A DNA stretch of 62,973 bases, the filler included, from Collodictyon triciliatum (Eukaryota): assembly GCA_043381765.1 (NCBI GenBank). It is 9 parts of 9 records of this genome, joined end to end, with 100 filler letters (N's around TTAATTAATTAA, not from the genome) between each part and the next. Parts side by side here need not be neighbours in the genome. Positions count along the whole stretch, not along the records: positions 58,432 to 62,973 come from JBHJMP010003974.1; 8 more parts are not named here. The stretch is one strand, 5' to 3'. The translations under genes were made by a program, and so were the position numbers. The notes under the pieces were generated by a model. It searched no databases, was not told the origin of the DNA, and saw nothing but the letters and a program-made list of their open reading frames with translations. Of the stretch, positions 20,564-62,973 are shown piece after piece (within the stretch, counting starts at the first letter, position 1; each line of letters opens with the position of its first letter).

Positions 20564-21377
20564 NNNNNNNNNNNNNNNNNNNNNNNNNNNNNNNNNNNNN
20601 NNNNNNNTTAATTAATTAANNNNNNNNNNNNNNNNNNNNNNNNNNNNNNNNNNNNNNNNNNNNATGCCACTTCCTCCGAACGCAGTTGTAAAACTTCATC
20701 GGGCTCCCGTATTAATATAAAAGAATGCGACGCAAACAAACACTTGTCTTTCCTCCAAAAAACCACAAGTCTGGCCCATAAAGCGCAAGATTTAAATCAC
20801 AGAACGGCCAAGGAAAACAGTCGTCGTTTGAATAAAAGAGAGCGCATCGAATGACAAACCCAGTTCTCTTACACTCCTATAATTGCTGCAACTTGTCACA
20901 GTAGCTCTTACGGTCCGTTGGAAAACAACTCGCCATCGCGCGGTATGAGATATGCATCTTTCGATAGGAGGATTAAGAGAGTATTGAGACGGAGTTACTG
21001 CACAGGAAGGTTGCCATCTAGCAGCAGAGGGCAGAAGAAAGGTTGCATAAAGAGTTCTTTTTTTTTTTTATTCTTCCATTCATTTTTGTGCGGGATGGTA
21101 GGTTGCGAAAAGAGATGAATTATATTCCAGACTCGTCGATGTGGTCTGCAAATAGCTCTTTGCTTTGATCGGCAAATGTAAGTCGTGTGGTGGCGGAGAG
21201 CTTTGTTACGGTGAAGGCGCCAGGATGATCACCCAGACTTTCCAGCAGTTGGTGCAAGAGAGTGGATTAACTTACAAAACCAAGAAAACCAAGAAAACCA
21301 AGAAAACCAAGAAAACCAAAAACACACTCGTACTAAGCAACTTTTCATTTTAATATGGGAACAGAAAACGGTTCTAC

Positions 21378-28021: not shown

Positions 28022-28222
28022 CATACATACATACATACATACATACATACATACATACATACATACATACATACATACATACATACATACATACATACAT
28101 ACATACATACATACATACATACNNNNNNNNNNNNNNNNNNNNNNNNNNNNNNNNNNNNNNNNNNNNTTAATTAATTAANNNNNNNNNNNNNNNNNNNNNN
28201 NNNNNNNNNNNNNNNNNNNNNN

Positions 28223-50666: not shown

Positions 50667-51480
50667 TGGATTTCTTGGATTTCTTGGATTTCTTGGATTT
50701 CTTGGATTTCTTGGATTTCTTGGATTTCTTGGATTTCTTGGATTTCTTGGATTTCTTGGATTTCTTGGATTTCTTGGATTTCTNNNNNNNNNNNNNNNNN
50801 NNNNNNNNNNNNNNNNNNNNNNNNNNNTTAATTAATTAANNNNNNNNNNNNNNNNNNNNNNNNNNNNNNNNNNNNNNNNNNNNTCTCTTTTCTTTTCTCT
50901 TTTCTTTTCTCTTTTCTTTTCTCTTTTCTTTTCTCTTTTCTTTTCTCTTTTCTTTTCTCTTTTCTTTTCTCTTTTCTTTTCTTTTCTTTTCTCTTTTCTT
51001 CTCTCTTTTCTTCTCTCTTTTCTTCTCTCTTTTCTTTTCTCTTTTCTTTTCTTTTTTCTTTTTTCTTCTTTCTTTTCTTTTTTATTTTCTTCTTTTGATC
51101 TTTTGTTCTTTTGTTCTTTTGTTCTTTTGTTCTTTTCTTCTTTTCTACTTTTGTTCTTTTTTCTTTTTTCTTTTTTCTTTTTTCTTTTTTCTTTCTTTCC
51201 TTTTTTCCTTTTTTCCTTTTTTTCTTTTTTCCTTTTTTCCTTTTTTCCTTTTTTCCTTTTTTTCTTTTTTTCTTTTTTTCTTTTTTTCTTTTTTTCCTTT
51301 TTTTCTTTTTTTCTTTTTTTTCTTTCTTTCTTTTTTCTTTTTCTTTTTTCTTTTTCTTTTTTCTTTTTCTTTTTTCTTTTTCTTTTTCTTTTTCTTTTTC
51401 TTTTTCTTTTTCTTTTTCTTTTCTTTTTATTTTTCTTTTTCTTTTTCTTTTTCTTTTTCTTTTTCTTTTTCTTTTTCTTT
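50667..51480. repeat. (GGATTTCTT)n and long T/C low-complexity tract at contig ends
   Basis: Directly visible. Confidence 0.9.
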
Positions 51481-56230: not shown

Positions 56231-58431
56231 CACCCAGTAAACGACCCAACAAACAAACACGCTCGATTGTTGCCCTATACTTTTTCTTCTTTTTTTCGTT
56301 CTGTTGATTTTAAAATCACAGAACCACCTACTTCCCAATCTTCCTCGTCCGTGGAGCAAAGCAATTGATGAATTTGTGGGATATCTTTAATGTGAGAGTA
56401 TGTGCACATTTTTATGTGCTTGAAAGAATGTTTTAATCAACAAGATTATACTATATAAAGCCCAACCTGTGCAGCTTAGTTATAGAATTTTCCATGTTTA
56501 TTAAACTCATTTTGTTTGTATAGCCTTAATGAAAAAAATTGGATATATATTATTTTATCTTGATTTTAGGATGTCAAAGAAGGTACAGGTTTGTATGAGT
56601 GAGCTTGGAATAATTTTATCTCTAATATACAAATATATACAAAACATCATAAGCAATTAGTTTTAGAGGCGCGTAGACATATTTGAAGTGTGTATTAATG
56701 AATAGAAGTATAAAAAAAGGAATAATTTCGATATTAGTTTTGGAAAATATCAGGGTCGTATAAATGCATCTTTCAGCCGCAGCGAGCGCATGTGCTTGTA
56801 TTGGGATGAGGTTTTTGTGTGTCAGAATTGTAGATGGGACTGCAATTTAGATTATTACATATGACACTTCCAGGTATTGGTAGAGGCTATGTAGTTTGTG
56901 GCCTCTTTGAAAAGAACAAAGGGAAGATGAAGTTTGTGGCATATATGGGTAGATTTCATACAGTATTTTTTTGAATGCAGGATATGGCGTAAATAGGCAC
57001 AGTATCACGAAGCAATTTTCTTGATGTGTTTTATGAGTTTACGGCTGTCGATTTTACCAAGAAGACGGGATTTGGAATGTCAATGTGAGTTGCTTGAGAA
57101 TTAATTATTATGATAATCAACCTATTGTAATTAATTGCGAGCTACATAATACATCAATAACAGTAAAGTGAAGAAATGTAGACATGTGTGCATTTTTGTG
57201 TTTGTAAGCCTGTTTTCTGAGACTTTGTAGTTTTCAGAACATCAAAACATAGCGCAATCTCATTCTTAGAGAATAAATAACAGAAAAATATAGAGTCGAG
57301 CGTGATTCTTACCCGAAAGTCGATATATTTCGATGCTATGAGAATAGAATATTTGCTCTGCTTTTAAGGTTACTACTACAAGAGTTCCTATGTGGTCACA
57401 AAAAATCAAAGGACATCACCAGGAAACTACAATTCCCCCAAAAAACATAGAGCCCAGCAAATAGTAAGATAAATGAATAACCAGGCATGTCAGTTTATCT
57501 TTTGAGACCAAAAACCAAAGACTGAAGTACTAGACTATTTTTTCTTTGCCCGTGCTTGCAGGAAAACACGAGCCGAGACGGGGAGATCGGCACAAGCCGC
57601 GAACCGTAGAAGGCCTTGCAAGTTGCAGCCAGTTTTTCTGGTTCCAACACCGGTGCGGAAAAAAAAACCCCCGAGTTGCATGTAAGTCCAGAAAGCTCCC
57701 GTGCAAGGAAGCCACCTGCAAGTTTGTCTGATCGGACAGTATTTTTGCTTGGGGTCGAGCAAGTCGTTTATAACAAGAGCAAGGCCCGCAGGCTCACAGA
57801 TGCACTCGACTCCTTCTTGAAAGCGAACAAACCTTGTGAAGAGTCCCATCCGACTGCGCTTACCGGACAGCGAAGGCCTTTATCTGATCGCCTTCCGCAC
57901 TGCGGAGAACGCCCCGAAAGCTTCTGGAGCTGAAGCAGGTAACTTTGATCGATATTATGAACAGCTTCAGCAGAAGTAGACCAACAGAGACCTCGGTGGT
58001 TCCCTACCAACTGCTGGACATGTGACGGCAACTCCTTAGTGACGAGCTGAAGCCGTTCAGACTGACCTACATGGAGATCAAAAAAAAAAACAAAGGCTTC
58101 ATCACAGAGACACGGCCGTGATGAAGCTTCTTTGTCATAAGAACCAGCTCTCTGCATATTGCGCGGTCACGGATAAAAAGTGTCCAAAGCGCATCCTCAA
58201 AGAGCGTCCGCCAGCCGCAAATAACGAATGACAAGTAAAGCTCCACAAAAGAATACACCCGCCAAGCAGACAAGCAGCAACGTGGTCAAGTAAACCAAGG
58301 CCAGGCAACATCAGATTCCGCAGCCATCACANNNNNNNNNNNNNNNNNNNNNNNNNNNNNNNNNNNNNNNNNNNNTTAATTAATTAANNNNNNNNNNNNN
58401 NNNNNNNNNNNNNNNNNNNNNNNNNNNNNNN

Positions 58432-61199
58432 GCGGCGAAGTGCAACTCTCAGACAAAAGCAACATAATTGTCCAAGCACTTCGTTTGACCAAAGGAGCAT
58501 CATCCGAAATTCAATACGAAGACCATTTCTTCGGTGATATTGCACTCATTCATCTGAGAGCAAATTATGGAAAGGAGCACAAAGATTTGAACCTCATTCC
58601 TGGAAATGAATTCATCATTTTTATTCGAATTCACAGAAGGAACATTTCCATCAAGATCCGAAAATATGACAGCAACTATGACGAAAGCGTGGAACCAGTT
58701 CGTATATTTCATGTTCTTTCATTCTTTATCAAACAAGTATCATGGATTCGACCAAATTTTATTCAAAATTGCCAACTGGAATGTCCTGAATGCAGACTCG
58801 ACGGGCTGGATGGACATATTCCAACAAATTCAAGTATGAAGGAATCAGAAATGAGAGTTTGCTCAAGAAAACATCAACTTGATACAAAGATTGTGAAGCA
58901 AGGATGCGTGTACATGGAACAAGGTATTTTTTTTTCATTTATTTTATCGACATTATGATTGCTCTTTCCTGTTTCAAATACTAAATATTGAATAAATAAT
59001 GCCTATCAATTAATGTCATTATATTTATTTTTCAGGGATATCAAATCGAGTTCAATCTGCGATGAAAGCAAGAAGAGGAAAGAAGAAGCAAACACCTGAT
59101 GAAATATTGAAGCTGGAATCAATCGACGAAAAATTGAAGGGTGTGTGGATGAACGAACAGGCAGAATTAGTGGAATATATCGGAAAAGGAGCGTTTGGCC
59201 GTGTATACAAAACCAAGTTCAGAGGAAAGGAAGCTGTTGTAAAAATACAGACAATCAAACAAACCAGCACTGAACTTATTGAATCTCTTATTTTTGAAAG
59301 CAAATACCTTTATGAATGCAGAGAAAATAAAAATATTGTGAGGTTATTTGGAGTCTATCGCAAGGATGATGACTTTTTCATGATTATGGAGCATGCCGGT
59401 ATTTCGCTGAAAACAATGTTGGAAAATAATCAAGTGGAGTTGAGGGATATTCAGATTGTTTCATACGCAAAACAAATCTGCCAAGGCCTCATTTTCATGC
59501 ATTCCAAGAACCTTTATCACGAGGACTTGAAGGCCGATAATATCATGATTGTGAAAGAAATAGTAAAGATTGTAGACTTTGGGATTGTTAGCCGACGCGG
59601 ACTGGAAAAAGTTGGTTCTAATCTGCCTACAAGATACGGCGAAGATAAACACTATGGGACGGTAAATTGGCAAGCACCCGAAATTCATGAAATTGTTAGT
59701 AAACCTTTTTATGAGGACGAATCAATGTATGGAGAACATGAAGTGAATATCGGACATCGTGGAGAGCCAATTAATGTGTATGCATTGGGGATGCTTGTGT
59801 GGTACATGTTTTCAGGAATCGAACCATTCCTTGGTGAAGCGCAGCCTCAAAGCTTTACAATGAAGGGACTAAGACCTGAAATACCTTCCAGTACACCAAG
59901 CGAATTCAGTCATCTTATCAAAGCTTGTTGGAAACAAAACTACAAACTTCGACCCACTCTACAAATGGTTTGTGAATACTTGGATACTTTATCATCAAAA
60001 CAGTACAAGCTCTCTCAAAAAGAAATAATTGGATTACTTCCAATCAGATGCTCACCTTTGATGGATATGTATCGTGGCGAGTTTATCGAATGGCTGCAAG
60101 ACCATCAGATAACGCGCTTCATTAAAGTAATTGCCGAACAAGATTGGAATAGGTTCATTGATATCAAAGAAAAATTCAACGAGAAAACGATGCTTGGAAT
60201 GTATCACATCAGTCCGTCAGATGCTTCTGCGTTTGTCGAACTATCGAAGCAAAATGTGAATGTGGGCGTTCAAAGTGCTCCGATTAAGTTTGTCAAGGAA
60301 CTATTCTATGTTCAATTAATTGGCTATCTGAAAGAGCAACACGATGAGGCATCTCAGAGATTACTCGAGAAAGTCAAAGCTCTGAGGCTCACCGGGGATA
60401 TTATTTCAAGGCTTGATAAAAAAGAAGTTTGCGCAGAACACTCAATTTCTAAGGAGGATATTTCTTTGTTTGCCACGGAACTCAAAGAGATATTGAAGGA
60501 AGAGTATGCCACAAGACCAGTAAATCGCATTTGGGCAAGCGTTTACCTGCGCCCGCCAGATGCAGAAGTCTGCCTGGCCACTTCATTGCGAATAACTGAT
60601 ATGGACGTAAACGAGACAATACCAGACTCCATGAAGACTTTGACCAAACTAAAACACCTCTCGTTGCATTCTAATCAGGTGAATATTGTGCGCTGTAATA
60701 TGAAAAATACCACCGTTAAAGTTCTCATTTGTGTTAATCACTATTATTCAAAACCTTCTTAGCTCGCTCAATTACCAGAACAATGTCTCGGATTGAAAAA
60801 TTTGTTGTACTTGAACATACCTAATAACAAAGTAAGGTTATCAATTATCACAGCCTTTTCTTAATTAAATTGGCCTGCTAATAATTAGACTTTTTTTTTA
60901 AAAAATAAAACTACATGTAATATTCATGGTGTTATAATAAAAATAAAATACTTCATCTCTAGATTTCGTACTTTCCTTCTGATATATCGCGTCTGTCGAG
61001 TCTTTCACATCTCGATATACATAAAAATCCGGTTTGGCTGATTAAAATGAATTTTTACATTATATTATTCATTCTGAACACTTTTTTTTTAAAGATTCTA
61101 GGGCTCCCGATTGGAATTACAGCTTTGACCAATCTTAGCCACCCACACACTCACTGCCGCTTTCTCCTCTCTTTTCCCATCATCAAAATAAAAAAATAG
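58432..61199 (+). CDS. 5'-partial TKL-like non-RD protein kinase with upstream Cys/His (COR-end-like) segment, SAM-like domains and C-terminal LRRs; last LRR exon disrupted
   Basis: Exons 58432-58923, 59036-60678, 60763-60831, 60963-61031, 61095-. Kinase motifs GKGAFG, AVVK, HEDLKADN, DFG, GTVNWQAPE, GLRPEIP, CW...RP. LRRs LTKLKHLSLHSNQ, LKNLLYLNIPNNK, LSSLSHLDIHKNP. Confidence 0.88.
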
Positions 61200-62973
61200 A
61201 ATCCCCCTTACCCACCGGCCTTGCCCATGTACCGTACCTTTTATCGCATCTCTTGCCATATCGGGCTCATCTGCGCCTTATCCGGCCCCGCTTACGCCCT
61301 CCCTGTCGCCCCTAACCACAAAAGGCCCATAAACATAACCATTTAGCCTTGGCGCAGACCGTTCATACCCTTCCTGGCGCCCTAAATAATAAATAGCAAA
61401 ATGCCTACGAACTAAAACATGTCTTGGTGTATCTTTGCTAATTGTAAGCGCTCTTGTATTTAAATTTAAAGTAGATAACCAACTTGTATCATCAGTTACG
61501 TCTCGTACAATCCAATAGCAATCATTGGTACTTCCAGCCCACACAAATGTAGCCCTTCCTCTAAAATTATTCACACAATTACTAAAGTATCCGTAAGAGT
61601 TCGTGTTTCTTCCTGCGACGGTATTGGTGATTCTTTGTCGACTGTCACGGGGAAATATAATTCCACGAGGGTCCACAAAAGTAAACCAAACACCAAACCC
61701 ATTATTTAAACCTTGTAAAGAATACTCCATTTCAAAACTATCATATGACTAACACATGTTACCGAGTGTTACCGTTTTATTTGATGTGATTGATGTAGAA
61801 ATTACAGTAGTTGGCGGATTATCATTTGTAGAATCATATATAACTGGATTACTATCAGCAGCAGCAACAATATAAACACTTCTTGCAACTTGTGCAGGTG
61901 CTGAAAAAGAACTGGTTATTGTTCCGCTCACACTTAAATTTCCTGTTAATGTTACTCCTGTATTACCTATAACCAACCGATCAACCCCGTTCGTACAAAC
62001 ATTAACATTATAATTCGAGCCATATAAACCTGTGGATTGTTGCCAGTAACGCCCGCTGGGTCGTTAAAAGATATACTTGGTGAAGCCGTGCTACCCCTAT
62101 AAAATTTGTCTGTTGTGATATGCCCAATCTTATAATGTGCCAGTTAGTCAAACTTGAGAAATACATACATTGGTATATTGACCCAGCTTCTAATCTTACA
62201 TTGCCTGTTGTTTGAGTTCGAACACCATTAAAGTAAGTCTCAAAATTAGCGACTCCTGTTCCCCTTGCTAAAAAAGCTCCATATTTAGTATTAGTGCTAA
62301 ACGGATTAAAGAAAACATTGTTCCGGAATTTAATACTGGGAGTTTATATGTGACATCACCACTAGAAAAATTTATACGCTGATACGGATTGCTATTTTGA
62401 TTTAAGGTTTGATTAGATGCTTGCGACGAAGTAGCTAATGATAATCCACCTCTACAAATGACATTTGAAGAAAAGTTAGTGCACCAGCGACTGTCAGTGC
62501 TGCGTTTATAGTCACTGCACCTGAAAAAGTCAAGGGAACCGATAAAGTACTACCAGCAGAATCCCACGTCTGTCTTGAAGAATTTGCGGTAATAATACCC
62601 ATTACATTGGTAGATGAAAGACCATAAACGCCTGTATTGCTATTACCAATACTTAGACCTGATGAACTCCCAGACCCTGTTCGAATAATATCTATGGTTC
62701 GATTATCACTAAATGCACATGTACCTGCACTGTTAAATTTAAAATTTGATTAGAGCCTGTTGGACCAGGTACTTCATTTACTGAAATAGAAGAAACAGCA
62801 CTTCCATTTGTTTATAAAAATTCCCTGTCTGCCCCGCCTGTGGAGGTAATTCACCTTCAATTCCGGTATACTGGTATCCGGTTGCTGTATCATTTACTTC
62901 CAAAAATTTATTTGCATCGGCTGCTGTTATTGTTGGCAAAATAAAAGATGTTTCTGTTGTGTCAGTATACTCT
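61143..62973 (-). mobile_element. Probable endogenous viral element carrying a frameshifted virus/phage-like fibre gene; runs off the window
   Basis: Abrupt break in a host LRR exon, then a C-rich terminal segment, then intronless Gly/Ser/Thr/Asn-rich coding sequence with fibre-like motifs. Confidence 0.6.
61278..62973 (-). pseudogene. Tail-fibre/virion-fibre-like protein with about 6-7 frame disruptions
   Basis: Manual translation: LPTITAADANKFLEVN, LPPQAGQTGNF/TNGSAVS, GSGSSSGLSIGNSNTGVYG, GSTASPSISFNDP.../STGLYG...VCTNGVDRLVIGNTGVTLTGNLSVSGTIT, then a C-terminal ~150-aa globular segment. Confidence 0.65.

What the first reader, a model, noticed from the sequence alone, without database searches (positions are those of the whole stretch)
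61278..62973. Virus/phage-like fibre gene embedded in a protist contig: probable endogenous DNA virus
Seen: minus-strand, intron-free, G/S/T/N-rich coding sequence. It has LPPQAGQTGNF-TNGS and two related modules (GSGSSSGLSIGNSNTGVYG...MGIITANSSR; GSTASPSISFND...TGLYG...VCTNGVDRLVI), broken by about 6-7 frameshifts but few nonsense codons. Recognised from memory: LPxQxGxxGxxLxTxG and GSxxxPSxxF...TGxY...TxGxxRxxI motifs occur in phage tail fibres and in fibre proteins of giant viruses and Polinton-like viruses/virophages. Inference: the end of an integrated Polinton-like virus, virophage or other dsDNA virus, with its receptor-binding gene nearest the terminus.
Basis: partly seen in the sequence, partly recalled or inferred. 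Interest (0 to 1): 0.7.

Follow-up and report, generated by a model that had tools for sequence, protein, structure and literature searches.

The report
Broken virus fibre gene beside host gene
A truncated, frame-broken copy of a phage-like fibre gene from a small freshwater DNA virus sits on the same short contig as a spliced protist kinase gene, so it is probably a dead viral insertion, an ordinary kind of find.

Summary
Minus strand 62972-61395 is a real coding remnant. One chain of frames gives about 522 codons with 2 stops; the other two frames hold 34 and 57.

It belongs to an unnamed family of about 700-1050-aa proteins known only from metagenomes and run assemblies. The best hit has E 2.7e-84 and 76% identity. 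The family has a fixed N-terminal start, phage-type shaft motifs and an end domain folded like phage spikes.

This copy is broken in four ways:
- It lacks the first 26 codons, because the contig ends there.
- It lacks the last ~97 codons.
- It has six frame changes, all in the same direction and each fitting the loss of one base.
- It has two in-frame stops.

The "63-kb protist contig" is nine contigs joined by linkers. The real contig is 4.5 kb. It also carries a spliced kinase-LRR gene whose last exon breaks off at 61143, where cDNA-like contigs of related organisms continue differently.

Best reading: a dead, truncated insertion of Polinton-like-virus DNA (0.55).

Rivals: the breaks are false-consensus artefacts, or the contig is a misjoin. 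No capsid, ATPase or integrase gene is on the contig, and no read evidence spans the junctions.

Earlier notes of this scan report Polinton-like virus contigs elsewhere in this genome. This is a new member of a known kind.

The parts
58432..62973 (.). The contig that holds the finding (4542 bases). The window's other eight contigs are separate pieces.
   Evidence: N44-TTAATTAATTAA-N44 linkers at eight places.
59034..61143 (+). Host kinase-LRR gene. Exons are 59034-60676 (intact frame, protein kinase domain), 60761-60831, 60963-61030 and 61094-61143. An upstream exon ends at 58921.
   Evidence: Pkinase E 1.1e-39. GT..AG joints 58921>59034, 60676>60761, 60831>60963 and 61030>61094 appear in contigs of runs X1/X2.
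61143..61144 (.). Breakpoint. One contig each of runs X1 and X2 matches up to 61143 and then continues with the same other letters. The window has no GT donor at this place.
   Evidence: Loose ends at 61143 (table 7); sequence. The continuation is absent from the window (0 matches with up to 3 mismatches).
61144..61394 (.). 251-base stretch of unknown origin with 51% G+C, lying between the host exon and the fibre remnant.
   Evidence: G+C is 0.506 against 0.37 on both sides. No Rfam match at E<=1. Fold z-score -0.82. No other copy in the window. A 165-base contig of freshwater run X3 matches 61223-61360 with 1 other letter and 1 gap.
61395..62042 (-). Fibre remnant, last frame segment: a shaft module and most of the first distal domain. 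It contains an in-frame TAG at 61749-61751 and ends at residue 613 of 710 of homologue P0002.
   Evidence: tblastn of P0002 residues 384-613: 66% identity, E 3.5e-93. phmmer 76% identity. A 151-base contig of run X4 matches 61523-61673 with 1 other letter.
62043..62816 (-). Fibre remnant, middle part: five frame segments (62816-62740, 62739-62481, 62480-62314, 62313-62104, 62101-62043) with shaft modules. It contains a TAA at 62812-62814. Frame changes lie at about 62817, 62737, 62447-62483, 62313, 62095 and 62033.
   Evidence: Frame-by-frame alignments to P0005 and P0006; local sequence at each break.
62817..62972 (-). Fibre remnant, N-terminal conserved start: residues 27-78 of the family. 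The first 26 codons run off the contig end.
   Evidence: 52 of 52 residues identical to P0004, 50 of 52 to P0002. A contig of run X4 continues past 62963 with letters that encode the family's preceding residues (table 7; my reading).

Best explanation
The stretch is a dead fragment of a virion fibre gene from a small dsDNA virus of protists, most likely a Polinton-like virus. It is lodged in host chromosomal DNA next to, and probably breaking, a kinase-LRR gene.

In intact relatives the protein is about 700-1050 aa long and has four parts:
- a fixed start of about 50 residues, inferred to be the part that docks on the capsid vertex;
- one or more LPxQxGxxGxxLxTNG-type motifs;
- a mosaic of shaft modules of the GSxxxPSxxF...TGxYG...TxGxxR type;
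- two distal all-beta domains, the last of which has the fold of phage spike and fibre domains and is inferred to bind the receptor.

The copy here cannot make that protein. It has lost almost all of the last domain, carries two stop codons, and changes frame six times. It therefore has no function of its own and is a fossil of a past insertion.

Shown: family membership, the breaks as assembled, the truncation, and linkage to a spliced host gene in the assembly.

Inferred: that the virus is Polinton-like, that the junction is real, and that the breaks are real mutations.
For: Family membership:
- 12 proteins at E<=1e-3 among 1.84 billion representatives, best E 2.7e-84.
- 29 proteins at E<=1e-5 in the word-indexed search, counting the query.
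- The N part is 52/52 identical to P0004. The middle part matches P0005/P0006 and the C part matches P0002.

Virion-fibre nature:
- In BFVD, 157 Foldseek matches at E<=1e-3. The 50 listed are mostly uncharacterised proteins of uncultured tailed phages, with a few named tail fibres and giant-virus proteins.
- The top five VIA-align matches are all phage spikes or fibres, Z 10.7 to 8.5. The next match, Z 6.8, is also a phage fibre.
- The nearest Atlas clusters are 100% viral.
- The motifs are shared with an 812-aa fibre-like ORF on a 49.9-kb IMG/VR contig and with a 1233-aa ORF on a 231-kb viral contig.

Eukaryotic-virus setting:
- Polinton-like viruses are reported to carry phage-like fibres (PMC12220804, passages).
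- One such fibre was found in virions (bioRxiv 10.1101/2022.07.28.501842, passages).
- Relatives sit on contigs of 14.8 to 24.9 kb.

Host linkage:
- The same contig carries a kinase gene with four GT..AG introns that are spliced out in contigs of runs X1/X2.

Real decay:
- 6 frame changes in 1578 bases, against 0 in 7649 bases of host reading frame in the same window (Fisher p 2.5e-5).
- The two stops are base substitutions. They sit at positions where some homologues have Gln, so each could arise from a Gln codon by one C-to-T change (my inference).
- The conserved last ~97 residues are absent.
- Freshwater runs hold 99%-identical pieces of the remnant and of the spacer at depths in or near the range of their host-gene contigs.
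Against: - No virus hallmark gene is on the contig or in the 44 long frames scanned on the window's other contigs.
- No contig listed bridges 61143/61144 or 61394/61395, so the junctions rest on the assembly alone.
- All six frame changes go the same way. The five that could be placed lie in or beside runs of one base (T5, T3, T4, G4, CC). That is also the signature of consensus error.
- PMC10120064 (passages) reports that stops and frameshifts in endogenous virus regions of protist assemblies are often false-consensus artefacts of many near-identical copies.
- The N part is 52/52 identical to an intact relative, which is hard to square with long neutral decay.
- The 251 bases between host exon and fibre are unexplained.
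Confidence: 0.55

Rival explanations
1. The insertion is real, but the breaks are artefacts. The contig edge lies in an endogenous Polinton-like virus that exists in several near-identical copies, and the consensus in that repeat region picked up false single-base gaps and base changes. The underlying gene may be intact, and the rest of the element lies on other contigs.
For: PMC10120064 (passages) describes exactly this artefact. All six frame changes have the same direction, and five sit at runs of one base. The N part is 52/52 identical to P0004. The contig ends inside the family's conserved start, where an assembler would break on a repeat (inference). Earlier notes report several Polinton-like virus contigs in this genome (unchecked).
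Against: Loss of the last ~97 codons and of all downstream genes is not a consensus error. The two stops are substitutions, and the TAG sits in a cluster of changed codons. The host reading frames of the same window have no breaks in 7.6 kb.
Confidence: 0.25
2. The contig is a misjoin. Host DNA (to 61143), an unrelated GC-rich piece (61144-61394) and DNA of a co-occurring free virus (61395-62973) were joined by the assembler, and there is no integration.
For: There are two abrupt junctions within 251 bases, with a jump in G+C from 0.37 to 0.51 and back. No bridging contig is listed. One metagenome relative, L003, is itself a visible chimera of a bacterial NrdR-like gene and a fibre gene. The assembly is fragmented into contigs of about 4.5 to 7.5 kb.
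Against: A free virus should carry an intact fibre gene, and this copy is truncated and broken. In the freshwater runs, pieces of the spacer and of the remnant have depths (3.6 and 5.3) in or near the range of those runs' host-gene contigs (3-15 and 4.9-16.8). No low-complexity overlap long enough for a graph misjoin is visible at either junction (my reading).
Confidence: 0.15
3. It is not from a virus of eukaryotes. It is either a cellular surface-protein pseudogene of the protist or a fragment from a tailed phage of an associated bacterium.
For: No relative carries a functional name or sits with a capsid gene in anything I could fetch. The structural and feature look-alikes are mostly tailed-phage proteins.
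Against: No match in 50,697 phage records for the 2 of 8 frame pieces that were tried. None of the 8 IMG/VR scans found the family. One scan of prokaryote genomes found nothing. PHROGs hits are to short motifs only. Relatives are intron-free with about 32-38% G+C and are followed by small genes and a D12 methyltransferase. Protist-labelled runs X1/X2 hold variants of the family's conserved start.
Confidence: 0.05

Closest known systems
Phage-like fibre proteins of Polinton-like viruses (survey in PMC12220804; Ltf of Gezel-14T, bioRxiv 10.1101/2022.07.28.501842)
   Same: It is a long, modular, intron-free virion fibre gene built from phage-type modules. It is inferred to attach to the capsid vertex and to bind the host cell. 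Domains are shuffled between relatives.
   Different: None of the Pfam domains listed in that survey reached its threshold. These are Peptidase_S74, Laminin_G_3, collagen, adenovirus fibre, phage tail repeat and BppL_N. Only one distant relative gave a weak BppL_N hit (E 6.8e-4). The family has its own conserved ~50-residue start and matches no Pfam model. I did not compare it directly with Ltf.
Endogenous Polinton-like virus and virophage insertions in protist genome assemblies (PMC10120064)
   Same: Virus genes sit on short contigs of a protist assembly and look fragmented by stops and frameshifts. Some are joined to host DNA.
   Different: Here only one gene fragment is present, with no capsid gene and no terminal repeats. 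One side is a truncation inside the gene rather than an element end.
Phage spike and fibre distal domains: Pseudomonas phage Pa223 capsid spike (9ny6), Klebsiella phage KP1 baseplate fibre (9f4a), CBA120 TSP4 N-terminal domains (7rfv)
   Same: The last domain of relative P0003 (residues about 297-423) superposes with Z 10.7 (rmsd 2.1 over 97 residues), Z 9.4 and Z 8.9.
   Different: Sequence identity is 8-14%. There is no sequence-level match to any solved structure (0 hits at E<=1). The window's copy lacks nearly all of this domain.

Membership tests
Unnamed fibre family with the conserved MTSYEIGSNS... start (P0002, P0004, P0005, P0007 and relatives) | Conserved N-terminal start of about 50 residues | tested here: met
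   Window 62972-62817 matches residues 27-78: 52/52 identical to P0004 and 50/52 to P0002. Residues 1-26 lie beyond the contig end.
Unnamed fibre family with the conserved MTSYEIGSNS... start | LPxQxGxxGxxLxTNG motif and shaft modules | tested here: met
   The motif is present and is cut by a frame change and a TAA. Both modules align to P0005/P0006.
Unnamed fibre family with the conserved MTSYEIGSNS... start | Complete distal domains with the conserved C-terminal residues (for example W703 and Y708 of P0002) | tested here: not met
   Homology ends at residue 613 of 710. The invariant columns beyond that point have no counterpart in the window.
Unnamed fibre family with the conserved MTSYEIGSNS... 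start | One open reading frame | tested here: not met
   Six frame changes and two in-frame stops as assembled. Not verified by reads.
Integrated Polinton-like virus or virophage | Double-jelly-roll capsid, penton, packaging ATPase, and integrase or recombinase on the same element | tested here: not met
   None on the 4.5-kb contig. None among the 44 long frames scanned on the other contigs, of which 11 matched ordinary cellular families or a reverse transcriptase. The element could continue beyond the contig end.
Integrated Polinton-like virus or virophage | Terminal inverted repeats and a target-site duplication | not testable with these tools
   Only one side is present, and it is a truncation inside the fibre gene.
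Integrated Polinton-like virus or virophage | Physical junction with host DNA supported by reads | tested here: inconclusive
   The junction exists in the assembly. Contigs of X1 and X2 leave the window at 61143. No listed contig bridges the junction, and 69 pieces were not shown.
Integrated Polinton-like virus or virophage | Intact relatives lie in Polinton-like virus genomes | not tested
   The tool that returns encoding contigs was closed. The five metagenome loci fetched are 1.3 to 3.3 kb and show only the fibre, two small genes and a D12 methyltransferase.
Tailed-phage tail fibre families (Pfam, PHROGs) | Significant match to a curated fibre family | tested here: not met
   The 8 frame pieces gave no Pfam hit above threshold and no PHROGs hit at E<0.06. 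Full-length relatives gave 0 Pfam families, and only phrog_26190 (unknown function) over a 49-residue motif.
Tailed-phage tail fibre families (Pfam, PHROGs) | Fold of a phage fibre or spike domain | tested here: met
   Shown for relative P0003, not for the window's truncated copy: Z 10.7, 9.4, 8.9, 8.8 and 8.5 to phage spikes and fibres. Model mean pLDDT is 68.7, with the C half mostly 70-94.

The most novel reading that the evidence does not exclude
This 4.5-kb contig is the first physical link between an unnamed, freshwater-abundant Polinton-like virus lineage and the chromosome of its host, a deep-branching flagellate. The insertion cut an exon of a kinase-LRR gene. If related strains carry the same broken copy, it is an orthologous viral fossil that can date the association.
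Probability: 0.3. Interest if true: 0.45.

Novelty: new member of a known kind. Interest (0 to 1): 0.3.

Why it matters
Earlier notes on this genome describe Polinton-like virus contigs that nothing tied to the organism. If the junction at 61143-61395 is real, it shows that a virus carrying this fibre family entered this protist's chromosome. The fibre family matches no Pfam model and, beyond one short motif, no PHROGs family, so it is a small addition to the catalogue of receptor-binding proteins of protist viruses. Beyond that, broken virus gene fragments in protist assemblies are common and expected.

Tried and rejected
- Family libraries: Pfam and PHROGs on the 8 frame pieces gave nothing usable.
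- Phage records: tblastn of 2 of the 8 pieces against 50,697 records found no match.
None found the family. Two found motif-level matches only (L001, L007).
- Prokaryote genomes: one scan, nothing found.
- JGI metagenome scan: 5 short loci, none with genes upstream of the fibre.
- Own genome: none is held, so no search for other copies or for capsid genes was possible.
- Earlier-findings look-ups by sequence with the window DNA, P0004, P0002 and the spacer: 0 windows each.
- Spacer 61144-61394 as an RNA gene: no Rfam match at E<=1, and the fold is no better than shuffles (z -0.82). Rejected.
- Spacer or downstream virus genes elsewhere in the window: none.
- Alternative genetic code (TAA/TAG = Gln): both stops align with Gln in some homologues. 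I rejected this because the relatives are full-length under the standard code, and a single C-to-T change at a Gln codon explains each stop.
- Programmed frameshifting: six -1 shifts have no precedent. Rejected without a test.
- Sequencing runs: no RNA holder is listed.
- Cover of the remnant: X1 and X2 show no cover between 61168 and 62231. X3 and X4 show only scattered cover of the remnant. No listed piece is shown to span a frame break, a stop or either junction, and 69 pieces were not shown. The reads therefore neither confirm nor refute the breaks.
- Sequence search of solved structures with the family profile: 0 hits at E<=1.
- Literature: 'Diphylleia' with 'polinton' gave 0 papers. 'Collodictyon' with 'virophage' gave 2 general reviews, seen in the listing only.

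Full report
**What the window is.** The 62,973 bases are not one contig. Eight linkers of the form N44-TTAATTAATTAA-N44 divide the window into nine pieces, whose ends are often simple repeats. The finding lies on the last piece, 58432-62973, which is 4542 bases long. I scanned 44 long reading frames on the other eight pieces. Of these, 11 matched families, all ordinary eukaryotic ones apart from a reverse-transcriptase fragment: NACHT/WD40/pentapeptide, phosphofructokinase, SDA1, P5-type ATPase, FAD oxidoreductase and EamA. None was a virus hallmark gene. No whole genome is held for this window.

**The observation.** The minus strand from 62972 down to 61395 reads as protein through a chain of seven frame segments. 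That chain has about 522 codons with 2 stops, while the other two frames hold 34 and 57 stops over the same segments.

**The family.** A read-through of 61281-62036, with X at the TAG, was searched against 1.84 billion representative proteins. It found 12 proteins at E<=1e-3, 11 at E<=1e-10 and 4 at E<=1e-30. The best is P0002, a 710-aa protein, with E 2.7e-84 and 76% identity; query residues 18-214 align to its residues 415-613. A second search, with the full-length relative P0004, gave 29 proteins at E<=1e-5, counting the query itself. Where a source names them, the name is 'hypothetical protein'. The sources are JGI, Logan, ENA and NCBI records, and the longest contigs run from 1.8 to 29 kb, with one of 83 kb.

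Five of the seven relatives printed share a start of about 50 residues beginning MTSYEIGSNS; of the other two, one is cut at its start and one begins differently. After that start their bodies differ. The window's copy is a mosaic in the same sense:
- Its start is 52/52 identical to P0004 residues 27-78.
- Its middle matches P0005 and P0006 at 42-51% identity.
- Its C part matches P0002, P0025 and P0041 at 73-75% identity.

**Is it a fibre?** No Pfam or PHROGs family covers it. The only PHROGs hit in close relatives is phrog_26190, of unknown function, over a 49-residue motif.

The two motifs do occur in fibre-like proteins of other viruses. An 812-aa ORF beside another repeat-rich ORF on a 49.9-kb IMG/VR contig shares the FLQTNGTDVSWQ stretch. 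A 1233-aa beta-helix ORF on a 231-kb viral contig ends in the GNSNTGVY...TNGSER module.

I modelled relative P0003 (423 aa, 29-row alignment). The mean pLDDT is 68.7, and the C half is mostly 70-94. Searches with this model gave:
- Foldseek against BFVD: 157 matches at E<=1e-3. The 50 listed are mostly uncharacterised proteins of uncultured tailed phages, with a few named tail fibres and giant-virus metagenome proteins. TM-scores are low (about 0.2), as expected for a long multi-domain monomer.
- VIA-align against 48,161 PDB chains: the five best are all phage spikes or fibres. They are Pa223 capsid spike (Z 10.7, rmsd 2.1 over 97 residues), KP1 baseplate fibre (Z 9.4), CBA120 TSP4 (Z 8.9 and 8.8) and Solidus tailspike (Z 8.5). 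A phage fibre-chaperone complex follows at Z 6.8, and unrelated rows start at Z 5.8.

The ESM Atlas look-alikes are clusters labelled 100% viral, at score 0.92, which is lead level only. So 'phage-like virion fibre' is supported. The best-matched domain is P0003 residues about 297-423, and this is the very part that the window's copy lacks.

**How the copy is broken.** Homology stops at 61395, which is residue 613 of 710 in P0002. About 97 conserved residues are therefore missing. The first 26 codons lie beyond the contig end.

There are six frame changes, at about 62817, 62737, 62447-62483, 62313, 62095 and 62033. All shift the frame in the same direction, and each fits the loss of one base. 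The five that can be placed lie in or beside runs T5, T3, T4, G4 and CC.

There are two in-frame stops. TAA at 62812-62814 sits where homologues have Gln or Glu. TAG at 61749-61751 sits where they have Ala or Gln.

In relatives L004 and L005 the fibre gene is followed by a 64-aa membrane-type ORF, a 98-aa ORF and a D12 adenine methyltransferase (E 2.4e-13). No trace of these genes is in the window.

**The neighbourhood.** The plus strand of the same contig carries a protein kinase gene (Pkinase E 1.1e-39) with leucine-rich-repeat exons after it. Contigs of runs X1 and X2 match this gene at 95-99% identity. These contigs carry remains of a cDNA-type adaptor, and the runs are labelled as other organisms. 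They skip four stretches with GT..AG ends: 58921>59034, 60676>60761, 60831>60963 and 61030>61094. So this is a spliced host gene.

One contig each from X1 and X2 follows the last exon to 61143 and then continues with the same other letters. Those letters keep the repeat in frame (my reading). They are absent from the window, and the window has no GT at that place. So, relative to its relatives, the host exon is cut at 61143/61144.

Between this cut and the fibre lie 251 bases with 51% G+C, against 37% on both sides. What they are is unexplained.

**Reads.** Only Logan contigs could be laid, and only once. Freshwater run X4 holds a 151-base contig over 61523-61673 with 1 other letter, at depth 5.3. 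Freshwater run X3 holds a 165-base contig over 61223-61360 with 1 other letter and 1 gap, at depth 3.6. These depths lie in or near the range of the same runs' host-gene contigs. This is weak support that the remnant and the spacer travel with the host.

X1 and X4 also hold variants of the family's conserved start at 62829-62973. One of them continues past the window's end with letters that encode the family's preceding residues (my reading). No listed piece is shown to span a break or a junction.

**Weighing.** Frame breaks are concentrated in the fibre: 6 in 1578 bases, against 0 in 7649 bases of host frame in this window (p 2.5e-5). A uniform error rate is therefore excluded.

A region-specific artefact is not excluded. 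PMC10120064 (passages) reports that stops and frameshifts in endogenous virus regions of protist assemblies often vanish on careful re-polishing, because reads from many near-identical copies give a false consensus. Two features here fit that picture: the one-directional, run-associated breaks and the perfect N-terminal identity to an intact relative. The truncation and the two substitution stops do not fit it.

I therefore put the readings as follows:
- A real, dead, truncated insertion: 0.55.
- A real insertion with artefactual breaks: 0.25.
- A misjoined contig: 0.15.
- A non-viral or bacteriophage origin: 0.05.

**Polinton-like virus or not?** That the virus is Polinton-like is inference, from three things. 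The first is the literature on phage-like fibres of these viruses (PMC12220804 and bioRxiv 10.1101/2022.07.28.501842, passages). The second is the contig sizes of relatives. The third is earlier unchecked notes of this scan that report capsid, penton and fibre contigs of such viruses in this same genome. One of those notes (e1-7303033) describes a fibre with a fixed 45-residue start. I saw a conserved start among this family's members, but I could not confirm that it is the same fibre.

**Comparison and novelty.** The mechanism matches that reported for fibres of Polinton-like viruses and of tailed phages. As a sequence family it is unnamed and carries none of the Pfam domains listed for such fibres. 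Fragments of endogenous viruses in protist assemblies are well known. The scan has found Polinton-like virus pieces in this genome before, on other contigs. What this contig adds is a possible join to host DNA. Verdict: a new member of a known kind, of modest interest.

Noticed in passing
window 7471-7570, 15033-15132, 20564-20663, 28123-28222, 35680-35779, 43233-43332, 50784-50883, 58332-58431: Eight N44-TTAATTAATTAA-N44 linkers show that the window is nine separate contigs. Several contig ends are simple repeats, such as (CATA)n, (ATA)n, poly-T and (TCTTGGATT)n, so the assembly breaks at microsatellites.
   Followed up: yes
window 230-6235 (+): A 2002-codon open frame combines a NACHT domain, pentapeptide repeats and WD40 repeats, and runs into a 688-N gap. 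This is an STAND/NLR-like architecture in a protist.
   Followed up: partly
window 61144-61394: A 251-base island with 51% G+C and no known identity lies between the cut host exon and the fibre remnant. A freshwater metagenome run holds a 99% match to 61223-61360.
   Followed up: partly
window 61094-61143 (+): Runs X1 and X2 continue the last LRR exon with letters absent from the window. X2 also holds a second variant that leaves at 61135, which suggests paralogues of this kinase-LRR gene.
   Followed up: partly
window 12738-13211 (+): A reverse-transcriptase fragment (RVT_1, E 1.3e-5) lies on another contig of the window.
   Followed up: no
L003 1-640 and 3073-3300: This metagenome contig is a chimera. 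A bacterial NrdR-like ORF and a non-family N-terminus are fused to a fibre body, and the far end reads like an adaptor-type artefact. Some public contigs of this family are therefore misassembled.
   Followed up: partly
L004 1429-2315; L005 656-1728: Downstream of intact fibre genes lie a conserved 64-aa membrane-type ORF, a 98-aa basic ORF (weak DUF5754 hit, E 0.006) and a D12 adenine methyltransferase.
   Followed up: partly
L001 6872-10573: A 1233-aa ORF on a 231-kb viral contig consists of dozens of ~20-residue SNL..V.SN.TLCN...VYG repeats. It ends in the same shaft module as the fibre family.
   Followed up: no
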